Assembly: GCA_964414895.1 (NCBI GenBank)
Contig: CAYPXO010000005.1
Span: 1 to 56,738, forward strand
Source: an uncultured Pseudomonadales bacterium
GTDB lineage: Bacteria > Patescibacteriota > Microgenomatia > UBA1400 > CAYNMC01
Direction: 5' to 3'
Length of the DNA: 56,738 nt
In this document: positions 1 to 56,738 of the stretch, piece after piece
Position numbering within the stretch: position 1 is the stretch's first letter
Layout of the letters: each line of letters starts with the position of its first letter
Made by a program: the position numbers and the translations under genes
Notes under the pieces: generated by a model
What the model was told of the DNA's origin: nothing
The model's input: only the letters and a program-made list of their open reading frames with translations
Database searches by the model: none

Positions 1-699
1 CTTGTGTGAATGTTTAACAAAAGCCAGATTAGTGACACAAGCCAGTCCTAAAACTTTTAATCCTAAAGAGCTTGCCATAATTACCTCCGGACAAATACTC
101 ATACCAGCCACATCAGCCCCTAAAATTCTTAGGGCTTTTTTATCAGCAAAGCTCTCATAATGCGGCCCCCGCATATAAGCATAAACTCCTTGCCTAAAAG
201 GAATTTTCTCTGCCCTACAAACCTTTAAAACAATCTCTCGCAAGCCTTGATTAAAAGGTTGAGAAAGATCCTGAAAGGAAGCACCGGAAAGCGGGCTTTG
301 TAAAAATAAATTGAGAATGTCTTTAATGACAACCAAATCTCCTATTTTATATTTTTTATTTAGACCGCCGACTGCCGAAGTTAAAACAAGCCTTTTTGTT
401 CCTAACTTGGCAAAAACTCTTACCGGCAAAGTAACCTTATACGAAGAATAACCCTCATAAGTATGCAGCCGTCCAGCCATTAACAAAGTTCTCTTTCCTG
501 CCAGCTTGCCAACTACTATCTTCCCCAAATGACCAGAAACACCGGCATCAACCCCAAAAACATCTTTAAAAGAAAACTGCTGGGCAACCTTAACTTTCTC
601 AATAACTTTATTCCAGCCCGAACCCAAAACCAAAACAGTCCCGGGAAAATCCGGCACTTTTCTTTTCAAAAAATCAACGGCCCTCTTTTCTTCAACCAT
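1..699 (-). CDS. purine nucleoside phosphorylase family protein (C-terminus cut by window edge)
   Basis: Own translation of the minus strand from ATG at 697-699: MVEEKRAVDFLKRKVPDFPGTVLVLGSGWN..GRLHTYEGY..MRGPHYESFAD..GADVAGMSICPEV. It stays open to position 1, so there is no stop in the window and it is absent from the ORF track. The motif pattern matches PNP/MTAP-type phosphorylases. Confidence 0.8.
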   Translation of the reverse strand, partial: MVEEKRAVDFLKRKVPDFPGTVLVLGSGWNKVIEKVKVAQQFSFKDVFGVDAGVSGHLGKIVVGKLAGKRTLLMAGRLHTYEGYSSYKVTLPVRVFAKLGTKRLVLTSAVGGLNKKYKIGDLVVIKDILNLFLQSPLSGASFQDLSQPFNQGLREIVLKVCRAEKIPFRQGVYAYMRGPHYESFADKKALRILGADVAGMSICPEVIMASSLGLKVLGLACVTNLAFVKHSHK

Positions 700-40686: not shown

Positions 40687-42243
40687 GTACCTACCCAATA
40701 CTTCGGTGTTTAATTGATTAAATTTGATTCTTCCCTTCCTGGTTTGATATAGTTTCATAGATGAAGTTAAACCTGCCCATTGTAGATATTGATCCAGATA
40801 GAATTAAAAGCCTTGGTGAAGCCAAAAAAGCCATCAATCAACTTCTAAATGTTTTTGAAGCTCTAGCCTCTCAAATGCAAAAACTGATGCTGGAGAATGA
40901 AAGATTAAGGAGAGAAAACGAGAGACTAAGAAAACAGTCTAAAAGACCTCTGTTTAGAAAAAAAACAGAACCTTCTTATGATTATTCTGCCACTAAAAGA
41001 ATGGAGAAAAGATTTTTAAGCTGGAAAAAATCTATAAAGAGAAAAAAGATAGAAATTGATAGTGAGGTTCAATTGAAAGAAACTGAAGAATGCCATTGTG
41101 GTTGTAAAAATTTTAAGACAATAAGAACTTGGGATAAAGTTGTTCAAGGAATAGCCATAAAAAGGAACAATACCAAATATTTAGGTAAGGATAAGAAATG
41201 TCTCTCCTGTGGGAAAATTTACCGTTCATTTATTCCTGATGAGATTAAAGATAAAGAGTTTGACAGCAATCTAACTACCTGGGTTTCAGTCTTGAAACAT
41301 GACTGCCGATTCAGTGAGCTTTTAATCTATAAATTCTTAACCAGTCTGGGAATAATAATAAGCAAGGGGCAAATAAACAACATTATTCTTAAAAACAGCA
41401 ACAAATTAGAAAATTCCTATTCTTATCTAAAATCCTCAGGGATAAAAAGAAGCCAATATCTCAACTCAGATGCTACTGGTTCTAAGAGAAGAAATAATAA
41501 AAAAGGTAATAGAAATAGTAATAGAAAAGTCATCAACCAGCATCTCCACTTTACTGGTCATAAATTCTTAAGTCTCTTTAAAATTACCAAGAAATACAAT
41601 TCAGAAACCTTAAACAACAAAGTCTTAGGTAAAAAAGCTAAAGATAAACTCTATGTTTCTGATGATCACGGGGCTAATGGGCAAAACCTTCAAATAGATA
41701 AAAAACAACTCTGCTGGTTACATGAGATAAGACACTTTCTTAAACTTGATCCTCAAACCACAGTTAATAAGGAAAGACTAAATAAAGTAATCAATCAACT
41801 CTGGCAGTTTTACCACCAAGCCAAGAAATACAGTCGAGATCCAACTAGAAAAAAGAAAAACAGTCTCCTTAAACAATTTGAATTTATTACCAACCAAAAA
41901 ACAGGGTATGACACCCTGGATAAAAGACTACTCTTTACAAGAAGAAAGGAAGAAAGATTACTTTTATTCCTTAACTACCCAGGACTACCAATCCAAAACA
42001 ATCTAGCAGAAAGAGATCTAAGACCAGCCGTAATCTTAAGAAAATTAACTGGGGGAACTAAATCTAAGGCTGGAGATAGAAGTTTTGAAAGACATCTCTC
42101 AATAATACAAACAATAAGGAAACAAGGATTAAATGTCTTTGAAACTCTTCATGGTCTTTTAAACAATCAACTTAATCCCTCTGTTCTTACTGTTAAAACC
42201 ACTCCTTGTATAAAACCCTTCACCTGAAGTATTGAGTGGGTAC
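40687..42243 (+). mobile_element. IS66-family insertion sequence (single-ORF type), 1557 bp
   Basis: Terminal inverted repeats GTACCTACCCAATACTTC / GAAGTATTGAGTGGGTAC. Flanking direct repeat CTAAAATCT (40678-40686 and 42244-52). Confidence 0.8.
40761..42227 (+). CDS. IS66-family transposase
   Basis: N-terminal leucine-zipper-like LENERLRRENERLRKQ, Cys-pair zinc finger (CHCGC..CLSCG), C-terminal NNLAERDLRPAVILRKLTGGTKS motif. Confidence 0.75.
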   Translation: MKLNLPIVDIDPDRIKSLGEAKKAINQLLNVFEALASQMQKLMLENERLRRENERLRKQSKRPLFRKKTEPSYDYSATKRMEKRFLSWKKSIKRKKIEIDSEVQLKETEECHCGCKNFKTIRTWDKVVQGIAIKRNNTKYLGKDKKCLSCGKIYRSFIPDEIKDKEFDSNLTTWVSVLKHDCRFSELLIYKFLTSLGIIISKGQINNIILKNSNKLENSYSYLKSSGIKRSQYLNSDATGSKRRNNKKGNRNSNRKVINQHLHFTGHKFLSLFKITKKYNSETLNNKVLGKKAKDKLYVSDDHGANGQNLQIDKKQLCWLHEIRHFLKLDPQTTVNKERLNKVINQLWQFYHQAKKYSRDPTRKKKNSLLKQFEFITNQKTGYDTLDKRLLFTRRKEERLLLFLNYPGLPIQNNLAERDLRPAVILRKLTGGTKSKAGDRSFERHLSIIQTIRKQGLNVFETLHGLLNNQLNPSVLTVKTTPCIKPFT

Positions 42244-42264
42244 CTAAAATCTATCCTATAATAC

Positions 42265-42292
42265 TTGACAAACTACATATTCGTGGTATAAT
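42265..42292 (+). promoter_or_regulatory. near-consensus sigma70-type promoter (TTGACA-16 nt-TGgTATAAT)
   Basis: TTGACA at 42265-70 and TATAAT at 42287-92 with a TG extension. Followed by hairpin CTTCAACA..TGTTGAAG (42301-42322) and AAGCGG..CCGCTT plus T7 (to 42351). Confidence 0.55.
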
Positions 42293-42466
42293 TTGCCTTG
42301 CTTCAACAGGAACTTGTTGAAGCGGAACTTTAAAAAAGAGCCGCTTTTTTTATGGGTATAAGTGGATCATAAATCAGCAAAAGCCGGAGGGTGAGCTCCT
42401 TTATATAAACCCTGTTGAAGCAGATTATATTATTTCGCTCGCCTTCCGACTTGTGTTGATTTTAAA

Positions 42467-42502
42467 AAGGACTGTCCTTGCAAGCTTGCAAGGACAGTCC
42501 TT
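42467..42502. repeat. 36-bp perfect palindrome AAGGACTGTCCTTGCAAG|CTTGCAAGGACAGTCCTT
   Basis: 18-bp arms with no spacer, and A/T runs on both sides. Confidence 0.9.
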
Positions 42503-42532
42503 AAAAAACTCGCTCTTTGACAATTAAATAAA

Positions 42533-42656
42533 AGTGCAGTTTTAGTAGAGAAGCTTGGGGAATGGAAAAGTAGCGAGAGGACTTAGGTGTTTGCACCTAT
42601 TTATCCATCACTCATTACTCATCATCCATTTCTCTCATATTCTCTACTAAAACGCT
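42533..42656. repeat. R0: rearranged member of the R repeat family (two TTTTAGTAGAGAA boxes in inverted orientation)
   Basis: GTGCAGTTTTAGTAGAGAAGC at 42533. ATTCTCTACTAAAACGCTTAA around 42637-42660 is the reverse complement of the R4-type left box. GTGCAG is the reverse complement of the R 3' end CTGCAC. Confidence 0.7.
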
Positions 42657-42870
42657 TAAAATACCTCCTTTTTATAGGTCTGAGAAACCCGGCGTTGTGG
42701 AATCTAAACTCCTTATAGTCAAGTTTGCAAATAAAAATAGCGTGCAATCCCCCGATTATTCAGATGCACGGCATGGCTGAATAAGCATATTCGCCGTGCA
42801 ATCTAGAATAAAAGGGGTATAACTAAGTCAAGATTGCCAAAAAATCGCAGAATTATTATCATGTTAAAGT

Positions 42871-43194
42871 ATGGTTATTGCTACCGCCGTTTCAAAAAAC
42901 AATATTATCATCCGCCTTACAGAAGAACGTTGGCTGCATATAATCTATTCCCATAGAGAGATAGACCCAACAGACTTCTCCTCCATCCTTGAGGTAATTG
43001 AAAATCCGGAAATGATCTTAAAGGGTGACCGAGGAGAACTTTTGGCAACAAAAAGAAAGCCTAGAAGCAAAAAATGGTTTGTGGTAGTATACAAAGAGAT
43101 CAACAAAAAAGATGGATTTATAGTCACCGCCTATCTTACTAAAAATGTGCGCTGGCTACTTAAGAGAAAAATCACATGGAGCAAACAATCGTAA
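42871..43194 (+). CDS. putative toxin-like small protein (partner of DUF2283-like gene)
   Basis: 107-aa ORF overlapping the next gene by 19 nt. The pair is flanked by inverted repeats at 42693-42717 and 43428-43453. Confidence 0.4.
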   Translation: MVIATAVSKNNIIIRLTEERWLHIIYSHREIDPTDFSSILEVIENPEMILKGDRGELLATKRKPRSKKWFVVVYKEINKKDGFIVTAYLTKNVRWLLKRKITWSKQS

Positions 43195-43421
43195 AATCAG
43201 CAACATCAGCCGCCAATGATCTTGTTCAATTAGCTCGCCTAGGAGCTTCTAAACTATGGGTCGATTATGACAAAAAAGCTGATGTTTTGTATGTCAATTT
43301 TGGACGGCCGCAAAAGGCCGATGATGCCTATCAAACAGAAAACGGCATTATTCAGCGGAAGAGAAAAAACAAACTCGTCGGTCTAACAATCCTCAATGCC
43401 AGTCAACTGGCAAAGCAGTAG
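43176..43421 (+). CDS. DUF2283-like small protein (putative antitoxin)
   Basis: YDKKADVLYVNFG...GLTILNAS pattern typical of DUF2283. Confidence 0.55.
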   Translation: MEQTIVKSATSAANDLVQLARLGASKLWVDYDKKADVLYVNFGRPQKADDAYQTENGIIQRKRKNKLVGLTILNASQLAKQ

Positions 43422-43553
43422 ATCTTCCTAGATTCCAGAACGCCGGAGTTTCTCAACTAAAATACCTCCTTTCCTTTGAGTGCTTGATATGAAAATTGGG
43501 TTTAGGTTTAGGTTTGGATGCTTGTTAGGGTCTAGAAGAAGGGTTTAGTGGGA

Positions 43554-43949
43554 TTAGTTTCTGGTTTTGAAATTAGTCCAAGACTGAGAGAGACGATAAA
43601 GTTGGCGAGCAGTAATATCATAAGCTTTAATCAATTTCTGACAGAGTTTTACATCAACTTTATGCGGATAAATATCTTTTATTTGTTCTAAACAGACTAT
43701 AGTTTCATTACATTCGGCTAAGGCATCGTCAAGATATTTTTGAAAACCTCTTTTTTGATGACGCTTAGCATAGCCTTCAGCAATTAGTCTAGGAATCGCT
43801 TTACAAGCTCTTGATAATTGACTAACTAAATCATATTTCTCACAACTAGGCAACTTGGGAATAATTTTGGTCATTACTAAAATACAAGCTTTATAACTGT
43901 TCTGGTAAACTTCTAAATCTCTGAAGCTTCTGATTGGTTGGTTGACCAT
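43554..43949 (-). CDS. four-helix-bundle protein (23S rRNA IVS protein / Avd-like family)
   Basis: FRDLEVYQNSYK...LVSQLSRACKAIPRLIAEGY...ECNETIVCLE pattern of the TIGR02436-type family. Confidence 0.8.
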   Translation of the reverse strand: MVNQPIRSFRDLEVYQNSYKACILVMTKIIPKLPSCEKYDLVSQLSRACKAIPRLIAEGYAKRHQKRGFQKYLDDALAECNETIVCLEQIKDIYPHKVDVKLCQKLIKAYDITARQLYRLSQSWTNFKTRN

Positions 43950-44163
43950 TAATGTTATGCTAACAGATTCTTACACCAACTTCCAAACCTCATTTCCATA
44001 CTAGCATCCACACCCAAACCAATACCCCTATCCAAAAATCAAGCATTGGAAGGAAAGGAGGTGAGGCCTATCGAAAAATAAAAAGGCCAAAAGTCGTTTT
44101 TTCAAACCGCGCAGCCTCTCGGTCGGAGGCCTGCGCCAAATCAAAAGCCCAAGGAGGCTAAAA

Positions 44164-44808
44164 ATGTTTAACGGAAAGTTCAAAAAAGTTCTGTTCGTAG
44201 TTGCGATCGTGGCCATCGCCGGCCTGTCCTTTATGGCCGGCCCGGCCCAAGTAGTCCTGGCTGAGGAGCCTGAGGAAACGTCGGAAATCACCCTTACTTT
44301 CTACGAAGATACATCCTTCAAAATCAAAGTTGTTGAGGGTGACTCCGAAGAGTTCATTAGGAGCCTGGAGGACGTGCTCGAAAGGCTCAACTGTCCAGAG
44401 GATTTGCTCAAGATCGAAGAGGACGTGCCAGCCAACCCCAGCACAACCACCATCACTGTTAAGGTGGTCAATATGGCTTCCAGGTTTTTCGATTTTGAAA
44501 TCGAGGGGCAATGGCCGGATGGGCTTGACCTCCACATGGCATTGGTTCCCAAGGACAAGCTCCCTACAGTAGAAGTCCGAGAAGGTAACGCCGAGGCTTG
44601 GTTCTCGAAGGCCGGACCTGGCCGGCTTGAAATCCCGACACAAAGTGGGCAATACGCCGTGTGGGGCCGGCTCGAGAAAAATAACGAACACACCCGCGCT
44701 GATTGGCCTCTCAACAATGACGTTGGTCAGGTAACCAACAACTGGCTTAACGGAGGCCTCGACGGCCTTCATCCTGGAGTGTTAGAACTCCAGGTGCCAA
44801 CCGAATAG
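44164..44808 (+). CDS. secreted hypothetical protein in a GC-rich segment
   Basis: AAGGAGG RBS 7 nt upstream and an N-terminal signal/TM (VLFVVAIVAIAGLSFMAGPA). G+C is visibly higher than in the surrounding sequence. Confidence 0.6.
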   Translation: MFNGKFKKVLFVVAIVAIAGLSFMAGPAQVVLAEEPEETSEITLTFYEDTSFKIKVVEGDSEEFIRSLEDVLERLNCPEDLLKIEEDVPANPSTTTITVKVVNMASRFFDFEIEGQWPDGLDLHMALVPKDKLPTVEVREGNAEAWFSKAGPGRLEIPTQSGQYAVWGRLEKNNEHTRADWPLNNDVGQVTNNWLNGGLDGLHPGVLELQVPTE

Positions 44809-45096
44809 CCCAGCGCCGAGCAATCCAGACGCCGGCCCCCGTGACGAGGCGGGCCCGACGCTAACGGATCTCCGGATCCGGTCGGGCCCGCCTGGGGGCC
44901 ATCGTGGGAGCGAGCCTCCAAAAAGCAGCCCTCCCCAAGATAAGCTGCGGAGGACTCGCTCCCCAACCCAGGGGCCAAAAGCCCCGCCTCCGCTCTCGAG
45001 GTTTCACATCGGCTTATTCAGCCGCGTTTACCTCGGGATGCTTCGGCGGGCAAGCTAAAAAAGCAAAAATCGGTCCACTGGCTGGACCACCCATTT

Positions 45097-45181
45097 TTGC
45101 CTTGCTGGCTTAGTTTTAGTAGAGAAGTTTCTTAAGAGTCTAAATCCTTTGGACTTTTAAGAGACAAAAATAAAACTGCAC
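45097..45181 (+). repeat. R1: structured cassette-boundary repeat
   Basis: TTGCCTTGCTGGCTTAGTTTTAGTAGAGAAGTTTCTTAAGAGTC-TAAATCCTTTG-GACTTTTAAGAGACAAAAATAAAACTGCAC. Confidence 0.9.
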
Positions 45182-45250
45182 TAGAAGATAGAGTTTTAGA
45201 TAGTTAGAGTTTTAGAGTTTTAGGGATTAGGGGAAATTGAAAATTTGCGG

Positions 45251-45279
45251 TTGACAGAAGAAAAGCTTTTTGCTATAAA
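45251..45279 (+). promoter_or_regulatory. sigma70-type promoter TTGACA-17 nt-TATAAA reading antisense into the 3' end of ORF 45336-45806
   Basis: Hexamers at 45251-56 and 45274-79, spacing counted as 17. Confidence 0.45.
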
Positions 45280-45335
45280 TATAGTTGACCGAGCGGACTG
45301 CGAATCCAGGTAACCACTCCTGGTGTAACAGTTCT

Positions 45336-45806
45336 TTAGGTCCTTTTAAGGACTCTCGGTCTTTTTTTATATCTTTTTATAACTATATCCATAATCTCCT
45401 TCTCCTTAATAAGGAAGTCAACTTTGAGCTTTTTCTTATAAGTGAAGTAAGCTTTTTTGTGTGCTGGCGACTTTTTACCAACCGACTTAAATCTAATTTC
45501 TGGACGATAGTTTAGATGTTGATAAATAATACTTTTTATTGTCTGTTCATGGCCTGGATATTCAATATCAATAATTAAAACTGCTGGTTTTACCTTCGCT
45601 TTTCGGACAAGAACTACAAGACAACAGGCAAAAGTGCGGATGGCAAACAGTTTGGGCTTTCCCAAAGCTCTAAATATCTTCTGGATTTTTCTTTTGGTTC
45701 GCGACTTAAGACAAACACTGAAGGCAAAGTCTTTATCGGCAATAGCAATAATCGTATTTCTCTGAGTTTCTTCAATTCTGCCAGATTGGTCAATTTCCCA
45801 AGCCAT
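45336..45806 (-). CDS. hypothetical protein (cassette between R1 and R2)
   Basis: 156-aa ORF filling the R1-R2 interval. No recognisable domain. Confidence 0.5.
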   Translation of the reverse strand: MAWEIDQSGRIEETQRNTIIAIADKDFAFSVCLKSRTKRKIQKIFRALGKPKLFAIRTFACCLVVLVRKAKVKPAVLIIDIEYPGHEQTIKSIIYQHLNYRPEIRFKSVGKKSPAHKKAYFTYKKKLKVDFLIKEKEIMDIVIKRYKKRPRVLKRT

Positions 45807-51596: not shown

Positions 51597-51974
51597 ATGG
51601 ACTCAGGAAATACACCAAAGGTTCCCAATGTGCCCGGAGTAAAGCCGGCAGGCACTACTCCCTCTCCAACTGGAAGTCAACCCAGTGGAACTCCTGCCCC
51701 TAAACCGGCAGGGTCAACACCAACACCTATTCCTCCAAGACCAGGAGCAACAACTCCCGGTTCAACAGGAGTAGGAACTCCAGGAGGAGTTAAACCAGGA
51801 ATTTCTACCCCTAAGCCAGGAGGTATGCCAAGCGTTGGCCCGATCCCAAATGGACCGAAACCAGCAACACCAGCTCCAGGAGGAGACAGCCCTAAGCCGG
51901 GCATGCCATCAACTCCCAGCCCAATGGGGGGACAAACTCCCGGCGGAACTCCAGGAACAAGTAAACCCTTATAA
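51597..51974 (+). CDS. Pro/Gly/Thr-rich low-complexity protein
   Basis: GGGAGGTGAAAAA RBS. 125 aa of PG(T/S)P-type repeats. Lies between two tRNA genes. Confidence 0.45.
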   Translation: MDSGNTPKVPNVPGVKPAGTTPSPTGSQPSGTPAPKPAGSTPTPIPPRPGATTPGSTGVGTPGGVKPGISTPKPGGMPSVGPIPNGPKPATPAPGGDSPKPGMPSTPSPMGGQTPGGTPGTSKPL

Positions 51975-52069: not shown

Positions 52070-52154
52070 GCCGGGATGGCGGAGCAGTCAAACGCACCGG
52101 TCTGTAAAACCGGCGGTCGAAAGGCCTACCTAGGTGCAAATCCTAGTCCCGGCA
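52070..52154 (+). tRNA. tRNA-Tyr (anticodon GUA) with long variable arm
   Basis: Hand-folded: acceptor GCCGGGA/TCCCGGC plus A, anticodon arm CCGGT-CTGTAAA-ACCGG, long variable arm, T arm CTAGG-TGCAAAT-CCTAG (unusual G at T-loop position 55). No encoded CCA. Confidence 0.8.
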
Positions 52155-53754
52155 CAGACAGACTGTCGCGGGATGTCCGAAAGCCTGCCGGCAGGCAGGG
52201 GCTACGGAGGTTTGAATCCTTACCGCGGCACAAGTTGCGATTTGTCGGGTGCGCCGCTAGGCTCGCCCATGGTTTTTGCCAAGAAAATATTATTTTTTTA
52301 TTCTTTAAAGTCAAGTCCGAGCCAATGGAAGATAAATATTGGCGTTTGGCTTTAAAGTTATTCTCTTCCCCAGCGATTTTGACTGCTAAAGCAGCCTTTT
52401 TTATAAAACTTCTATAAAGTCCGAGCCATTTGGTATTTATTGAGCTTGAACTGGCTTTGGAAAGCTTTTGTTTGATTTCTGTTTTTTGGTTAATAAGGTT
52501 GGCTTTTTTGATTAGGTAGTGTTCTTTGACTATTTCCCCTTCCAGGTGTAAATCAAGAAGTCTTTCTAGTTTGGCAGTAATCTTGAAAAGTTGTTTTTGG
52601 AGAGCTTGGCTTTGTTTTTGATAGGTTTGGTTGATTTGGTTTTCTTCTTTTTTAAGCCAAAACAAAAGCTTTTCTGCTTGTTTGTTTTTTAAAGAAACTT
52701 TTTGAATCGCTTGGTTGATTTGCTTGACCAGTTCTTTTTGAGAAGTAAAAAGTTGATTGCAGGTTTTTTGTTTTCTTTTGCCTTTTTTGGTACAGCGGTA
52801 GTAAATATAAGTTGCTGTTCTGTTGGTTCCTTTATAGTATTTGCTTTTTCTTTCTGCGGTAATAGCATAACCACACTCGCCACATTTAAAAAGATTGGTG
52901 AAGGCAAAATTATTGCCTCTTTTTTGTGGTCGGGAGCGTTTTTTAATAATACTTTGGACTTTATCAAAAAGTTTCTTGCTAACTATTGGAAGATGACTGC
53001 CTTCATAGAGTTCTTTATTGTATTTAAAAACTCCATAATAAAAAGGGTTAGCTAGCATGTTTTTAACAACATCAATAGCTAAAGGAGAATTTCCTTTGCG
53101 GTTTAAGACTTGATTTTTGGCTAAAAATAAAGAGATTTGTTCATAAGTATAGTTACCAGTGCTATAGAGTTTAAAGGCTTTTTTGATCGGTTCAAACTTT
53201 ATTGGGTCTTTGATGATGTCTCTTTGTTTGGGGTCATTGAGATAACCTGGAGGAGCCCAACCAGGAAATTCTCCTCTTTTGCATTTTTGTCTTTGGGCTC
53301 TTTTGATGTTTTCCGATAAATTATCAGAGAAATACTTTGACTGACCAAAAGCAATTTGTAAGAAAAACTTACCCTGTGGAGTCGGTTCAAACCAAAAAGT
53401 AGGAAACTTTAAAGAAGTGATTATTCCTTGATCAAGAAGATAAACAATTCTGCCTCCATCAATACTGTTTCTTGCTAGCCTGTCTGGGTGCCAAGCAACA
53501 ATACCAGAAACTCCTTCTTTCTCCATCTGTTCAAGCATAAGGTTAAAAACTGGTCTGCCTGGGACTTTGGCGGTTTGGCTCTCAGTGAATTGGTCAACAA
53601 TGAAGAGATTTTCTTTACTGGCATACTCTTTAACTTCAATAAGTTGGTCTTGAATTGAGCGGACTTGTTTGTCTTCTTCATCTGTTGATTTGCGGGCATA
53701 GAGAAAGTATTTAATTTCTTGAAGATTTTGAGATGGTTGGCTTTGGGCAGGCAT
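52126..53754 (-). CDS. large serine recombinase
   Basis: Resolvase catalytic domain (YARKSTDEE, DRLARN), recombinase domain, zinc ribbon (CGECG..YYRCTKK..C) and coiled-coil. The last ~50 codons read through IR-L, the tRNA-like remnant and the 3' end of tRNA-Tyr on the opposite strand. Confidence 0.85.
   Translation of the reverse strand: MPAQSQPSQNLQEIKYFLYARKSTDEEDKQVRSIQDQLIEVKEYASKENLFIVDQFTESQTAKVPGRPVFNLMLEQMEKEGVSGIVAWHPDRLARNSIDGGRIVYLLDQGIITSLKFPTFWFEPTPQGKFFLQIAFGQSKYFSDNLSENIKRAQRQKCKRGEFPGWAPPGYLNDPKQRDIIKDPIKFEPIKKAFKLYSTGNYTYEQISLFLAKNQVLNRKGNSPLAIDVVKNMLANPFYYGVFKYNKELYEGSHLPIVSKKLFDKVQSIIKKRSRPQKRGNNFAFTNLFKCGECGYAITAERKSKYYKGTNRTATYIYYRCTKKGKRKQKTCNQLFTSQKELVKQINQAIQKVSLKNKQAEKLLFWLKKEENQINQTYQKQSQALQKQLFKITAKLERLLDLHLEGEIVKEHYLIKKANLINQKTEIKQKLSKASSSSINTKWLGLYRSFIKKAALAVKIAGEENNFKAKRQYLSSIGSDLTLKNKKIIFSWQKPWASLAAHPTNRNLCRGKDSNLRSPCLPAGFRTSRDSLSVPGLGFAPR
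52166..52230 (+). other. tRNA-like remnant (acceptor + T-arm-like ends around a CCTGCCGGCAGGCAGG palindrome)
   Basis: GTCGCGG..GGAGGTTTGAATCCTTACCGCGGCA has acceptor pairing and a T-loop-like sequence, but no D arm and no anticodon loop. It abuts IR-L. Confidence 0.4.
52228..52283. repeat. IR-L: 56-bp inverted repeat flanking the serine recombinase
   Basis: GCACAAGTTGCGATTTGTCGGGTGCGCCGCTAGGCTCGCCCATGGTTTTTGCCAAG. 54/56 identical to the reverse complement of 54175-54230. Confidence 0.9.
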
Positions 53755-54174
53755 GAGTTTCTCCTTTCTTGGATAACTTGGTAACTAAAATGGCCGATTG
53801 GGTGCTAAGGAATCCAACGGATTCTGTTTCCCAAATCGGCCATTTAAAAATCCGTTGTTAACTCCTTAGCAACTTTAATATTGCATTTTAAAAAGAACGT
53901 GTCAAGTACGAGTGAAGCATGTTTGAAGAACGTTTGAAGCATGGACTGAGAGCAGGTGAGCAAATCAAAAGAGGCTTTTGGTCAGTCTTTAAATCTTAAG
54001 AGAATTAAATAAAATCGCTGGGCTCCGACCTAAAGTCGGAGTAAATAAAAAAATAATAAAAGATTATTTCTTGGTCTAGTTGACCCGCCAAACTACAAAG
54101 GAGATGAAGAAATAATCTTTTCCTCTTTGATGATTAAAATTGGCAGATTTATCAGTCAAATTTTAATCATCTTT

Positions 54175-54230
54175 CTTGGCAAAAACCATGGGCGCGCCTA
54201 GCGGCGCGCCCGACAAATCGCAACTTGTGC
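54175..54230. repeat. IR-R: 56-bp inverted repeat partner
   Basis: CTTGGCAAAAACCATGGGCGCGCCTAGCGGCGCGCCCGACAAATCGCAACTTGTGC. Contains the internal dyad GGGCGCGCC-TAGC-GGCGCGCCC. Confidence 0.9.
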
Positions 54231-55328
54231 ACCTTTCACAAGTATGCTCGGACTTTCTTTATCAATAAAGCTTTAGAGTGTTGATTCTGGTTGTTATTCT
54301 ATCTCAAGTTGCGATAATTCGCAAACAGGTTGGCGACATGGCGAGCCCTAGGGCTTGGTCTCTGAGAGTCTAAGGGTGAACTATGAGCAAAACTGAGGGT
54401 TTAGGGATTTTAGCTATTTTTTAATATTTCTAGCATTTTTGTTAATTTTGGCTTTTTTGCCATTTTTAGGCTTTTTCTTTATTTAGGCCATTTTGAGGGT
54501 TTAGGGGTTTTGGGAGGGTTCTGGAAGGTTTCCGGGAAGACTTCCTCTGGGAAGGGTGCTGGGAAGGGGTTGTGGTAGTCATTCTAAAAGGCTATCTAGA
54601 AACCCTTGCTGGTTAGACTAATAGGAGGTATAGGAGAGATAGGTTTGAGATTTTGCTTGTTGTTGTTGCCCGCCTCTTCGCCTCCGCTAAAGCTACGGCG
54701 AACTAGGCTGGGCAAAGAAATCCTAAACTCAAACCTTGGTGCTGCTAATGATAGGCTGTTTAACTCCAAAACTAAATACTGCTAATGAAAGGCAATACTT
54801 AATCCAAATCTCATGTTGTTAGCGCTAGGCTTCCTAGTTCCGAAAGTCTGTTCTCCTCCATGAAACTTAGTGTGAGCAACCAGAAGGCTAGTCTCATCCC
54901 ACACCGCTATCTTTTCTAACAAAGGCTATACTAACCCCATACCTTAATACTTGCTTCCGTAATCTCTAACCCCAACCGCTACACTACAAACCCGAATGGC
55001 TATCATTTCTAAAACCTCAAGATTAGACCGCCAAAACTTTGTTCTAAATTCCAGAGTTTTGGCGTTTTGCTAGACTTTGTTGTTGTTATTGCTCCTCCTT
55101 CATGTCCCCCGACTAACGTCGGGGGACAATTCAGGAGGAGTTGCCGCTTTACAAAAAGTTATTTTTATTTTATTTTTGCGGGGTCAGGAGGAAATCCTGA
55201 TAAAGGGATATAAAAGACATGTGGGAAAATAATCTGTAGTCTTAAAGGAAGTTAAACTTTCAGTAAAAGGTCTAATTTTTCGGTTTCGTCTTGAGTAAAC
55301 CGCTCTTGGAGCGGAAGAAATGAAAAAT

Positions 55329-56036
55329 TTAATCTGAAAATGCTTTTAAAAGGTTCATATAATCCCTTTCTGTAATCCCTATAAGTTTGCCTTCCTTAAT
55401 TTTTTCTAGCCATGTCCTTATCTCTCCAGCTTTTCGGCGGTGTGGCAAATATTGCCAAGCATTCTCAGGATCTTCTTTTAGTGCTCTTTGGTGCAATTGC
55501 TCGTATGTATACAATTCTCTCTCATTTTTTGTTGGGGTAATGAGTATTTTACGAGGCTTAATCTTAAATCGAAATTGTTTATAAGTAGGATCAATTGTCT
55601 GCCAATCCTCCTTTCCAACCCGAAATCTAATAATATGGTGATAATGTTTGTATCTTTCTGAAATATCTTTATCTTTTTGGGTATCCATATCAGTAGTTAT
55701 GAAACGAAATAAGGCAACTTCCATACGATTACCATATTTGTTGCGCAAAACTTCCTCTATTACCCCACAGGCGATTGTACACAAGCCCGCTCCGGTGAAT
55801 TCTCCCCCTCCACCTATTTTTGGATAAAAAAGACCTTGTTTCTGAGCTTTCTCCCATTCTTCATCATCCAAAATTCTTTGAAAACCACTTTTATCTTTTT
55901 TAGCAAAAGCTTCCAAGGCATCCAAAAAATCAACCTGTTTTGATCTGAACCAACGCTTTACCTCTAAAGAAGTTAATTTAGGTTCTTTCAAAGGAGGACT
56001 GTCTGTTGTTAAAGTTGAATCAAGAAATTCAGACAT
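55329..56036 (-). CDS. transglutaminase-like (Cys-His-Asp) domain protein
   Basis: GAGLCTIACG (Cys), KHYHHIIRF (His) and DWQTIDPTY (Asp), with spacing typical of the transglutaminase-like cysteine protease fold. Confidence 0.5.
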   Translation of the reverse strand: MSEFLDSTLTTDSPPLKEPKLTSLEVKRWFRSKQVDFLDALEAFAKKDKSGFQRILDDEEWEKAQKQGLFYPKIGGGGEFTGAGLCTIACGVIEEVLRNKYGNRMEVALFRFITTDMDTQKDKDISERYKHYHHIIRFRVGKEDWQTIDPTYKQFRFKIKPRKILITPTKNERELYTYEQLHQRALKEDPENAWQYLPHRRKAGEIRTWLEKIKEGKLIGITERDYMNLLKAFSD

Positions 56037-56357: not shown

Positions 56358-56720
56358 TCAGTCCATACTAACTCGAGCACTCCGAGGATTCCAAACTCTG
56401 ACCGTCCAAAGGACGGGAATCAACGGCGATTCCCCTGTCAGAAAGAAAAGCCCTTGAATTCCAGCATTATCCTCTGCGAAGGTCAAAGTGAATACCGACA
56501 GACTTTGATCCAGCCACGGGCCAGGCCCAATGAGCTGGGTCGGAGTCATTTTGTTTCTCCCGCAGAAGAAGAAAGGATATCCCTCTAAGACTGGATGTGT
56601 CTTGCGGGTGAACTTCGCAGCAGCCCATTCCTGCATTCTTTGGCGGTATTCACCACCGCTGCCCAAATCACCCAGATATTCCTCCCTGACCTTACCCCAC
56701 TTTCTTCTTAAATAACCCAT
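56358..56720 (-). CDS. hypothetical protein in a GC-richer segment
   Basis: 120-aa ORF with GGGAGG ~13 nt upstream of the ATG at the window edge. No recognisable domain. Confidence 0.3.
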   Translation of the reverse strand: MGYLRRKWGKVREEYLGDLGSGGEYRQRMQEWAAAKFTRKTHPVLEGYPFFFCGRNKMTPTQLIGPGPWLDQSLSVFTLTFAEDNAGIQGLFFLTGESPLIPVLWTVRVWNPRSARVSMD

Positions 56721-56738
56721 TAGACAAAAAAACCTCCC

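What the first reader, a model, noticed from the sequence alone, without database searches (positions are those of the whole stretch)
52070..54355. Large serine recombinase bracketed by 56-bp near-perfect inverted repeats beside tRNA-Tyr: an invertible or minimal mobile module
IR-L (52228-52283) and IR-R (54175-54230) are reverse complements at 54/56 positions. Together they enclose 2003 bp that contain only the recombinase gene and its ~420-bp structured leader. Each repeat has an internal dyad GGGCGCGCC-(GCTA/TAGC)-GGCGCGCCC with an asymmetric centre, as expected for a serine-recombinase crossover site with polarity. Two such sites in inverted orientation predict DNA inversion. The alternative is that the pair are attL/attR of a minimal integrated element whose attP and attB are nearly palindromic. 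IR-L abuts a tRNA-like remnant (52166-52230) and tRNA-Tyr, a classic integration neighbourhood. The recombinase ORF has no stop inside the element. It reads through IR-L, the remnant and the antisense 3' end of tRNA-Tyr. In the flipped orientation the same frame through IR-R would end after TFHKYARTFFINKALEC, so the C-terminal tail would depend on orientation. A third partial site lies just outside IR-R: CAAGTTGCGAT at 54304-54314 and CATGGCGAGCCCTAGG at 54336-54352.
Basis: partly seen in the sequence, partly recalled or inferred. Interest (0 to 1): 0.75.

Follow-up and report, generated by a model that had tools for sequence, protein, structure and literature searches.

The report
tRNA-end-targeting serine recombinase module
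The inverted repeats are real and mark a typical member of a very large, apparently undescribed family of recombinase genes in ultra-small (Patescibacteria) bacteria that sit at the 3' end of tRNA genes between two inverted recombination-type sites, but the recombinase gene itself was never found flipped.

Summary
A 59-nt inverted repeat (57/59) at 52228-52286 and 54172-54230 brackets an intact 542-aa large serine recombinase (LSR).

It is not a one-off. In 141 of 161 homologous loci (43-56% identical proteins, mostly Patescibacteria), the LSR gene lies between long, mostly 100% identical inverted arms.
- The 3' arm overlaps the ORF end and abuts the 3' terminus of a tRNA or tmRNA gene in 84 of 111 loci with both flanks.
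- The 5' arm is preceded by a conserved block that carries a T-loop-like GTTCGA box. That box lies 4-5 bp further out than the real T-loop, matching the published attP-versus-attB zinc-ribbon-motif shift.

Three-site comparisons place strand exchange at tRNA positions 72-74. They read IR-L as an attL-type junction and IR-R as half of an intact attP-type site. In at least half of the relatives, an attR-type site lies beyond a cargo segment that has its own inverted arms.

The LSR segment has the same orientation in 111 of 111 loci. The adjacent cargo segment is inverted between samples in one relative.

Verdict: this is the recombinase module of a tRNA-end-targeting integrative island. It is a new variant of a known kind. 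What the inverted duplicate site does remains inferred.

The parts
52070..52155 (+). tRNA-Tyr (gta). The LSR ORF terminates inside its antisense 3' end.
   Evidence: ARAGORN. Rfam tRNA hit at 57 bits. ORF end at 52126.
52166..52230 (+). Degenerate tRNA-like sequence that serves as the outer (B-type, 't') half of the tRNA-proximal site T. It has acceptor-like pairing GTCGCGG/CCGCGGC, a T-loop-like box GGTTTGAATCC at 52209-52219, and a discriminator-like A at 52230.
   Evidence: Not called by ARAGORN or Rfam. The fold is not a cloverleaf. In 84 of 111 relatives a real tRNA or tmRNA occupies the same position. The box G lies 21 nt from A73, equivalent to 24 nt with CCA, as in real tRNAs.
52228..52286 (+). 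IR-L, arm a1 at the LSR 3' end. Together with the tRNA-like end it forms the attL-type junction T. It encodes LSR residues ~489-508 (QKPWASLAAHPTNRNLC) on the minus strand. It contains the imperfect GC dyad at 52247-52268, followed on the plus strand by ATGGTTTTTG.
   Evidence: conserved PWAAL..P..R motif. for the three-site logic in relatives.
52126..53754 (-). Large serine recombinase gene, 542 aa. It has the catalytic Ser in YARKST, the recombinase domain, a 4-Cys zinc ribbon, and a long helical insert.
   Evidence: Pfam. All 76 family-invariant columns are retained in alignment A1. The RD-ZD region matches the A118/LI integrase structure 4kis at E=2.6e-6.
53755..54171 (-). 417-nt leader inside the unit. 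It holds the best sigma-70-like site, TTGACA-17-AATATT with a TG extension, at 53905..53877.
   Evidence: This is a consensus match only.
54172..54230 (-). IR-R, the second copy of arm a1. It is the inner half of the attP-type site J. Read in the LSR sense it forms a perfect 9-bp GC hairpin plus T-run, a terminator-like structure facing into the gene.
   Evidence: (terminator-like, 54211..54190 on the minus strand). (z = -2.7).
54231..54270 (-). Conserved non-repeated block a2, the outer (P-type) half of site J. Read on the minus strand it is TTGATAaagaaaGTCCGAgcatacttgtgaaaggt. The T-loop-like box GTCCGA is at 54253..54248, 26 nt from the A73-equivalent base. That is 5 nt further out than in the tRNA-like half.
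   Evidence: conserved across loci whatever the host or tRNA. (4-5 nt shift in 80 of 88 loci). PMC3783163 for the 5-bp rule.
54305..54352 (+). It is a possible relic and is not needed for the model.
   Evidence: marginal significance and no analogue in relatives.

Best explanation
The 2-kb unit is the recombinase module of an integrative island family that targets the 3' terminus of tRNA and tmRNA genes. The family is widespread in Patescibacteria.

Every recombination-type site has the form left half - core - right half. The core is tRNA positions ~72-74 (plus CCA).
- Site T: IR-L plus the tRNA-like end. It is attL-type, host tRNA half 't' joined to element arm a1.
- Site J: IR-R plus the block outside it. 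It is an intact attP-type site (a2 + a1). It lies in inverted orientation just upstream of the gene.
- Site L: attR-type (a2 + the native sequence downstream of the tRNA). In relatives it lies beyond a cargo segment.

The visible inverted repeat is arm a1 present in both T and J. Arm a1 also encodes the conserved LSR C-terminus.

Inferred mechanism:
- The zinc-ribbon domain reads the universal T-loop box GTTCGA in the tRNA half. In a2 it reads a mimic placed 5 bp further out.
- Strand exchange occurs at the acceptor end or discriminator.
- Integration leaves the tRNA intact because a1 begins with the tRNA's terminal bases.
- T stays usable as a docking site, so islands pile up in tandem at the tRNA.

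T and J are inverted, so the enzyme could only flip the gene segment, not excise it. Flipping is either rare or selected against.

For J, the most likely roles are a recombinase-binding operator and insulator in front of the gene, and the partner site for cargo inversion. The arms would be kept identical by gene conversion.

Shown: the anatomy, its conservation, the tRNA adjacency, the box geometry, the three-site relationships, tandem islands, and cargo inversion in a relative. Inferred: which protein domain reads which motif, the exact crossover, gene conversion, and the role of J.
For: Family-wide inverted arms: 141 of 161 loci from two independent collections have arms of at least 40 nt, mostly 100% identical, although the proteins are only 43-56% identical to the query.

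tRNA adjacency: the 3' arm abuts or overlaps a tRNA or tmRNA 3' end by 4-9 nt in 84 of 111 loci. These cover 18 isoacceptor families plus tmRNA.

ORF read-out: the LSR stop codon lies beyond the arm in every locus where a stop was found. The C-terminal tails GFEP and DSN are antisense T-loop.

Conserved a2 block: it is present outside the 5' arm whatever the host or tRNA.

Box geometry: the GTTCGA-like box in a2 lies 4-5 nt further from the core than the tRNA T-loop in 80 of 88 loci, and the window fits. This matches the 5-bp zinc-ribbon-motif shift between attP and attB (PMC3783163).

Three-site comparison in 12 loci:
- T and J share the core plus a1.
- J and L share a2 plus the core.
- T and L share only a 3-11 nt core at the tRNA end and lie in direct orientation.
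- The flank x at L is a native terminator hairpin or the next tRNA gene.

Tandem islands at tRNA-Asn, with the newer island between the tRNA and a resident LSR.

Cargo is accessory or defence-like: HTH_3, restriction-modification, HNH, proteases, ThsB-TIR.

The enzyme is intact and matches the A118 integrase RD-ZD region.
Against: - No empty site, circular form or orientation variant could be examined for the window itself. Only one identical contig exists.
- The window's tRNA partner is not a functional-looking tRNA.
- No attR-type site or second a2 copy lies within the 2.5 kb available on the cargo side.
- The window's arms carry two mismatches, so this copy may be old or inactive.
- An intact attP-type site inside an integrated element is not part of the textbook serine-integrase scheme, and its origin is unexplained.
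- If a free circle carried two equivalent attP sites, both orientations should integrate. Only one is seen.
- Arm a1 has its own TTCGA-like box at attB-like distance (my reading). That does not fit a simple P' assignment.
- Fewer than 10 of 2.9 million viral contigs carry the family. The same protein sits in the same context across samples. Recent mobility is therefore not shown.
Confidence: 0.55

Rival explanations
1. Self-inverting switch. The LSR flips its own 2-kb segment between the two inverted sites. This changes its C-terminal tail and which outside transcription reads into it, in the manner of Hin or Gin.
For: The two sites are inverted and have an asymmetric core. The architecture is conserved. 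The neighbouring cargo segment is inverted between samples at 99.9% identity, and in L079 relative to its relatives. L113 and L122, with 92.6% identical LSRs, carry the same outer block on opposite sides of the gene. That implies at least one historical flip.
Against: No locus among 111 with both flanks is flipped. None is flipped among 16 and 11 contigs that carry identical proteins from different samples. The enzyme is a 542-aa integrase-type LSR, not a ~190-aa invertase. Cargo inversion could instead come from homologous recombination between arms of 80-400 nt.
Confidence: 0.15
2. Autonomous minimal IS-like transposon of 2003 bp bounded by terminal inverted repeats. It would excise as a circle whose junction is a perfect palindrome and reinsert at tRNA ends.
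For: Many contigs of 1.6-2.1 kb consist of exactly arm-LSR-arm. Several divergent copies occur per genome at different tRNAs (three loci in CAYNHQ01). Related elements sit at different tRNAs. A relic in L077 joins the two interior ends as if the arms had been lost from a circle junction.
Against: The short contigs have arms equal to assembler k-mer lengths (55, 77, 141). Any inverted repeat of at least k nt produces this artefact. The conserved a2 block lies outside the repeat in every locus. The cores at the two ends are inverted, so excision would need a palindromic crossover dinucleotide, and the arm ends do not consistently supply one. No near-identical copies at different sites were found.
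Confidence: 0.12
3. Immobile, domesticated recombinase gene. Its flanking repeat would be a pair of inward-facing terminators and insulators with no current recombination role.
For: A terminator-like hairpin plus T-run faces inward in the window's 5' arm. The same feature occurs in 34 of 141 arms, against 10 facing outward and 8 in shuffled sequence. Context is stable across samples. The window copy has a decayed tRNA partner and two arm mismatches.
Against: Only a quarter of arms pass the terminator test. The three-site core logic, the native flank at L, the tandem islands and the insertions into other LSR genes all indicate real site-specific integration. The catalytic and DNA-binding residues are fully conserved.
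Confidence: 0.1
4. The repeats are a generic palindromic repeat family unrelated to the recombinase.
For: None beyond the GC-rich hairpin shape.
Against: The core occurs only at these two places in the window. The arms are different sequences in different loci but always pair across an LSR gene and include its 3' coding end.
Confidence: 0.01

Closest known systems
Phage and ICE serine integrases (A118/LI, Bxb1, phiC31, SPbeta)
   Same: Same domain order: resolvase catalytic domain, recombinase domain, zinc ribbon with a long helical insert. The RD-ZD region gives a sequence match to A118 integrase. The sites are built from two halves around a short core. A recognisable motif sits 4-5 bp further out in the element half than in the host half, as described for attP versus attB (PMC3783163).
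   Different: The target is the 3' terminus of tRNA or tmRNA genes, with the T-loop as the apparent motif. From my own knowledge, serine integrases usually target protein-coding genes and tRNA targets are typical of tyrosine integrases. An intact attP-type site persists in inverted orientation inside the integrated element. The att arm encodes the enzyme's own C-terminus, and the ORF runs out into the host tRNA. The family is almost absent from viral contigs. No directionality factor was identified.
Hin/Gin/Cin/Pin invertible segments
   Same: The recombinase gene lies within or beside a segment bracketed by inverted crossover sites. A neighbouring segment is found in both orientations in a relative.
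   Different: Those enzymes are small serine invertases with 26-bp sites and an enhancer. Here the enzyme is a 542-aa integrase-type LSR and the arms are 50-400 nt. The recombinase-bearing segment was never seen flipped.
LSR transposons Tn4451 (TnpX) and Tn5397 (TndX)
   Same: An LSR moves a discrete element through a circular form (my own knowledge, not tested here).
   Different: Those elements are many kilobases long, have short imperfect end repeats and do not target tRNA ends. Here a conserved block lies outside the repeat, and the end cores are inverted.
tRNA-targeting genomic islands with tyrosine integrases, including tycheposons (bioRxiv 10.1101/2020.12.28.424599, listed)
   Same: Insertion at a tRNA 3' end. 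The integrase gene lies next to the tRNA. A short direct repeat of the tRNA end marks the far boundary. Cargo is accessory or defence-like, and islands can stack in tandem.
   Different: The enzyme class is serine, not tyrosine. The shared core is only 3-11 nt. The internal inverted site copies and nested inverted repeats are not features of those islands.
Yeast 2-micron plasmid FLP/FRT and plastid inverted repeats
   Same: Long, perfectly homogenised inverted repeats divide the DNA into two unique segments, one of which encodes the recombinase (analogy from my own knowledge).
   Different: The enzyme is a tyrosine recombinase, both isomers occur in equal amounts, and the biological context is unrelated.

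Membership tests
Large serine recombinase / serine integrase | N-terminal resolvase-type catalytic domain with the nucleophilic serine | tested here: met
   PF00239 at E=4.8e-18. R21, S23 and the other catalytic-domain columns are invariant in 24 homologues.
Large serine recombinase / serine integrase | Recombinase domain plus zinc-ribbon domain with four Cys | tested here: met
   PF07508 and PF13408. C291, C294, C321 and C332 are invariant. Matches the 4kis RD-ZD region at E=2.6e-6.
Large serine recombinase / serine integrase | Coiled-coil motif inserted in the zinc ribbon domain | tested here: inconclusive
   A ~100-residue low-conservation helical-looking stretch follows the last Cys. No structure prediction was run.
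Large serine recombinase / serine integrase | attP and attB halves with the ZD motif shifted 5 bp | tested here: met
   The GTTCGA-like box lies 4-5 nt further out in a2 than in the tRNA in 80 of 88 loci, and in the window (21 versus 26 nt). The rule is from PMC3783163. That the zinc-ribbon domain reads this box is an inference.
Large serine recombinase / serine integrase | Unidirectional attP x attB integration, with excision needing a directionality factor | not testable with these tools
   Needs biochemistry. No candidate factor was identified.
tRNA-targeting integrative island | Insertion at the 3' end of a tRNA or tmRNA gene that leaves the gene intact | tested here: met
   84 of 111 relatives. 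In the window the partner is a degenerate tRNA-like sequence 10 nt after tRNA-Tyr.
tRNA-targeting integrative island | Direct repeat of the tRNA end at the distal boundary, followed by native downstream DNA | tested here: inconclusive
   Met in 12 relatives. For the window no distal site lies within the 2.5 kb before the contig end.
tRNA-targeting integrative island | Empty site, or excised circle, in related genomes or reads | tested here: inconclusive
   No close relative of the window genome exists in the collections. L036 against L071 (tRNA-Ile/tRNA-Ala adjacency) was not clean.
Hin/Gin-type invertible switch | Small (~190 aa) serine invertase with a C-terminal HTH | tested here: not met
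   542-aa LSR architecture.
Hin/Gin-type invertible switch | Both orientations of the bracketed segment present in populations | tested here: not met
   0 of 111 loci are flipped. The context is identical in 27 contigs of two proteins. The window's own population was not testable.
IS / TIR-bounded transposon | The inverted repeats are the element termini, with nothing conserved outside them | tested here: not met
   The conserved a2 block lies outside the 5' arm in essentially all loci. Homology between related elements extends 30-470 nt beyond the arm.
IS / TIR-bounded transposon | Multiple near-identical copies at different sites | tested here: not met
   Only divergent paralogues occur per genome. 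No pair at 92% identity or more with different tRNA contexts was found, apart from L113/L122.

The most novel reading that the evidence does not exclude
This LSR family may be a combined integrase and invertase platform. The recombinase gene is permanently flanked by inverted att-type sites that read the universal tRNA T-loop. It would dock at any tRNA or tmRNA 3' end, keep the docking site reusable, and build tandem arrays of invertible accessory and defence cassettes. That would be a serine-recombinase counterpart of integron and shufflon logic in the streamlined genomes of Patescibacteria. Each locus would also display its own attP, attL and attR side by side.
Probability: 0.3. Interest if true: 0.8.

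Novelty: new variant of a known kind. Interest (0 to 1): 0.66.

Why it matters
The family is large. Six full-text literature searches found no description of this architecture.

If the site model is right, three things follow.
- It would show how a serine integrase can use a universal RNA-gene feature, the T-loop box, to reach many different tRNA genes. That would extend the attP/attB zinc-ribbon-motif rule to a natural and very diverse series.
- Each chromosomal locus carries an intact attP-type site next to attL- and attR-type sites. Cognate attB and attP pairs for hundreds of orthogonal recombinases could therefore be read directly from genome sequence, which is useful for genome-engineering toolkits.
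- It would identify tRNA-proximal LSR islands as a main route by which genome-reduced Patescibacteria acquire and rearrange restriction-modification and other defence-like genes.

Tried and rejected
- Rfam, at gathering and E-value thresholds, found nothing in the remnant, leader or right flank except tRNA-Tyr. A weak Mu-gpT-DE hit at the ribosome-binding site is chance.
- I first read the a2 block as the LSR's sigma-70 promoter and have withdrawn this. The TTGAyA to TATAAT spacing is 21 nt, and the scan tool does not call it in the window, L022 or L086. Promoter-like sites lie inside the leader instead.
- The arms as host-derived DNA: rejected, because their inner parts encode the conserved LSR C-terminus.
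- The 1.1-kb ORF-free stretch right of IR-R as a decayed LSR copy: no significant tblastn signal with 60 family members.
- The third partial site as a family feature: not reproduced in 20 relatives.
- A second inverted repeat on the window's cargo side: none up to the contig end.
- Population variants of the window: the only other contig is 100% identical and ends at the same place.
- Phage origin: only 6 of 2.9 million viral contigs carry a relative, all at contig ends or as fragments.
- A clean empty site from L036 against L071: the distal boundary in L036 could not be defined.
- Palindromic symmetry between a2 and a1, and a mirrored T-loop box in the native flank x: no convincing match by eye.
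- Arms as universal terminators: only 34 of 141 pass.
- Literature: six searches found no paper on this architecture.


Full report
**1. The observation**

The window holds one long inverted repeat in this region. The arms are 52228-52286 and 54172-54230, 59 nt long and 57/59 complementary. The GC-rich dyad inside them is perfect in IR-R. In IR-L it carries both mismatches. With up to three mismatches it occurs nowhere else in 56.7 kb, where none is expected by chance.

Between the arms lies a 542-aa ORF on the minus strand (53754..52126), plus a 417-nt leader. The ORF has Resolvase, Recombinase and zinc-ribbon domains. It runs through IR-L and the tRNA-like stretch, and stops inside antisense tRNA-Tyr (52070-52155).

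The 'remnant' at 52166-52230 has a 7-bp acceptor-like pairing and a GGTTTGAATCC box. No tool calls it a tRNA, and it does not fold as a cloverleaf.

**2. It is a family trait**

The protein has more than 7,900 relatives at E≤0.001. Nearly all are about 500 aa, and where a source names them they are Patescibacteria.

I fetched 81 loci from genomes and 80 from metagenomes and scanned each for inverted repeats around the gene.
- 141 of the 161 scanned loci (160 relatives plus the window) have arms of at least 40 nt, up to 179 nt, and most are 100% identical. The proteins are only 43-56% identical to the query. Most loci without arms are cut by a contig end.
- Many short contigs are exactly arm-gene-arm, with arms of 55, 77 or 141 nt. 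That is what a de Bruijn assembler produces for any inverted repeat longer than k. It is not evidence of mobility.
- The stop codon always lies outside the 3' arm.

**3. The flanks**

ARAGORN places the 3' end of a tRNA or tmRNA gene on the opposite strand, overlapping the outer 4-9 nt of the 3' arm. This holds in 84 of the 111 loci with both flanks, covering 18 isoacceptor families plus tmRNA. Most of the remaining loci carry tRNA fragments, or tRNAs that I suspect contain introns.

Both arms begin with the tRNA's own terminal bases: the last acceptor bases, the discriminator, and CCA. The C-terminal tails of the proteins (GFEP, DSN) are antisense T-loop translations.

No locus has a tRNA at the 5' arm. 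A conserved block, which I call a2, sits there instead, whatever the host or tRNA. It contains a GTTCGA-like box.

In 80 of the 88 loci with a good box on both sides, the a2 box lies 5 nt (61 loci) or 4 nt (19 loci) further from the tRNA-end-equivalent base than the real T-loop box. The window fits: GTTTGA at 21 nt in the remnant, GTCCGA at 26 nt in 54231-54256.

This is the geometry Rutherford et al. described for serine integrases. The zinc-ribbon motif in attB is shifted 5 bp toward the centre relative to attP (PMC3783163). With the box at that spacing, the centre falls at tRNA positions 72-74.

**4. Three sites**

In at least 22 of 44 loci with enough upstream sequence, a second inverted repeat of 80-400 nt and about 100% identity has one copy equal to a2. 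That copy abuts or overlaps the 5' arm. The other copy lies 0.6-3.7 kb further out.

Writing each site in its own sense gives three forms:
- T = tRNA half, core, a1
- J = a2, core, a1
- L = a2, core, x

T and L share only the core. It is 3-11 nt long and always includes positions 72-74. They lie in direct orientation. J lies between them in inverted orientation.

The flank x is a terminator hairpin immediately after the tRNA end, or the next tRNA gene (L071, L067, L057, L068). It looks like the DNA that originally followed the tRNA.

This is the pattern expected from attB (t+x) recombining with attP (a2+a1) to give attL (T) and attR (L), with one extra intact attP-type copy (J).

**5. Cargo and dynamics**

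The segment between J and L carries a small HTH_3 gene next to J, followed by variable genes. These include DNA methylase with Mrr, HNH, T5orf172, S49/SDH proteases, radical SAM, a glycosidase, and many unknowns.

For one LSR found in eleven contigs at 99.8-99.9% identity, the 3.2-kb cargo segment is inverted in one contig relative to three others. L079's cargo is inverted relative to its relatives.

L185 has two islands in tandem at tRNA-Asn. The newer island, which includes a ThsB-TIR gene, lies between the tRNA and a resident LSR. T therefore stays usable as a target.

In a few loci the 3' arm joins another a2-type block instead of a tRNA (L008, L113, L137, L176). L113 and L122 (92.6% identical LSRs) carry the same outer block on opposite sides of the gene, so the LSR segment has been flipped at least once in evolution. 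Even so, 111 of 111 loci show the gene's 3' end facing the tRNA or its stand-in.

**6. What I withdrew or could not settle**

The a2 block is not a canonical promoter. Its hexamers are 21 nt apart, and the scan tool does not call it. The best promoter-like sites lie in the leader (window 53905..53877).

In the window, the 5' arm read toward the gene is a terminator-like hairpin. Across the family this holds for only 34 of 141 arms, against 10 facing outward.

I could not find an empty site, a circle, or any population variant for the window. Its only other occurrence is an identical contig that ends at the same point. No second a2 copy lies before the contig end.

Why an intact attP-type site is kept upstream of the gene, and why only one orientation is seen, remains inference. 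My preferred reading has three parts:
- The site acts as an operator and insulator in front of a gene whose real attP overlaps its own 3' end.
- It is kept inverted because direct repeats would delete the gene.
- It is homogenised with its partner by gene conversion.

**7. Comparison and verdict**

The enzyme is a bona fide large serine recombinase. The system works like a serine-integrase island that targets tRNA ends.

It is not a Hin-type switch. The enzyme class is wrong, and no flipped form was seen. It is not a TIR-bounded insertion sequence, because a conserved block lies outside the repeat. It is not a generic repeat.

Six literature searches found nothing on this architecture. I rate it a new variant of a known kind, and of above-average interest. 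The reasons are the size of the family, the T-loop-based targeting, and the fact that each locus displays its own attP-, attL- and attR-type sites.

Noticed in passing
P0002-P0016; L104 579-3293; L101, L102 (L102 51-410): ORFs of 865-932 aa consist of a complete LSR fused in frame, right after its arm-coded C-terminus, to residues ~131-end of a second LSR. Viral contigs L101 and L102 hold the complementary N-terminal fragment (aa 11-130). It breaks just after ...TTCTGGTTTGAAAGCACGCCACAAGGCAAATTT. LSR islands therefore also insert into resident LSR genes, after the invariant FWFEPTPQGKF box. The DNA of that box (TGGTTYGAA) resembles a T-loop box about 26 nt from the break.
   Followed up: partly
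L086 3-3248 versus L088 1-3246: A 3.2-kb segment with a 912-aa protein of no known family plus a small ORF, immediately upstream of the LSR, is inverted between metagenome samples at 99.9% identity. L088 also lacks about 107 nt of the right-hand arm. This could be a locked variant or an assembly effect.
   Followed up: partly
L185 491-7542: Two LSR islands in tandem at one tRNA-Asn. The newer island carries HTH_3, a ThsB-like TIR protein, 8xMP and unknowns. Its 317-nt second arm overlaps the 3' end of the older LSR.
   Followed up: partly
L013, L020, L033, L042 (downstream flanks): The tRNA next to the LSR is not called by ARAGORN. It ends like tRNA-Asn and contains ...GATGATATAGTCC...GATAAGYGTAACC.... 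From memory this resembles group I intron core elements, so these may be intron-containing tRNA genes.
   Followed up: no
window 56358-56738: The contig ends here in two assemblies: the window at 56738 and a Logan contig at the equivalent of 56713, inside a 120-aa ORF with no family match. This suggests a repeat or variable boundary 2.5 kb from the LSR, possibly the island's far arm.
   Followed up: partly
window 54270-55330: A 1.1-kb stretch with no ORF of 60 aa or more, and G-rich direct repeats (TGAGGGTTTAGGGRTTTT at 54394 and 54494). There is no Rfam hit and no LSR remnant.
   Followed up: partly
window 51597-51974: A 125-aa proline- and glycine-rich ORF with repeated PG..P units, lying between tRNA-Thr and tRNA-Tyr. 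It has no family match.
   Followed up: no
window 40761-45806: An IS66-family transposase ORF (40761-42227), a 23S rRNA intervening-sequence protein gene (43554-43949), and a 1-kb block of 55.6% GC (44001-45000) with long ORFs on both strands, in a genome otherwise at 35-45% GC.
   Followed up: no
window ~47.7-48.9 kb (L096 104-1228): HicA-like and BrnT/CopG-type toxin-antitoxin gene calls lie just upstream of the VIT1/rubrerythrin gene.
   Followed up: no
L077 3694-3749 (and ~15 other subfamily loci): A conserved ~55-nt patch upstream of the a2 block is the reverse complement of the two interior ends of the LSR segment, joined head to tail with the arms missing. It could be a relic of a circle junction that lost its palindrome, or a fold-back element that pairs with the LSR 5' UTR.
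   Followed up: partly
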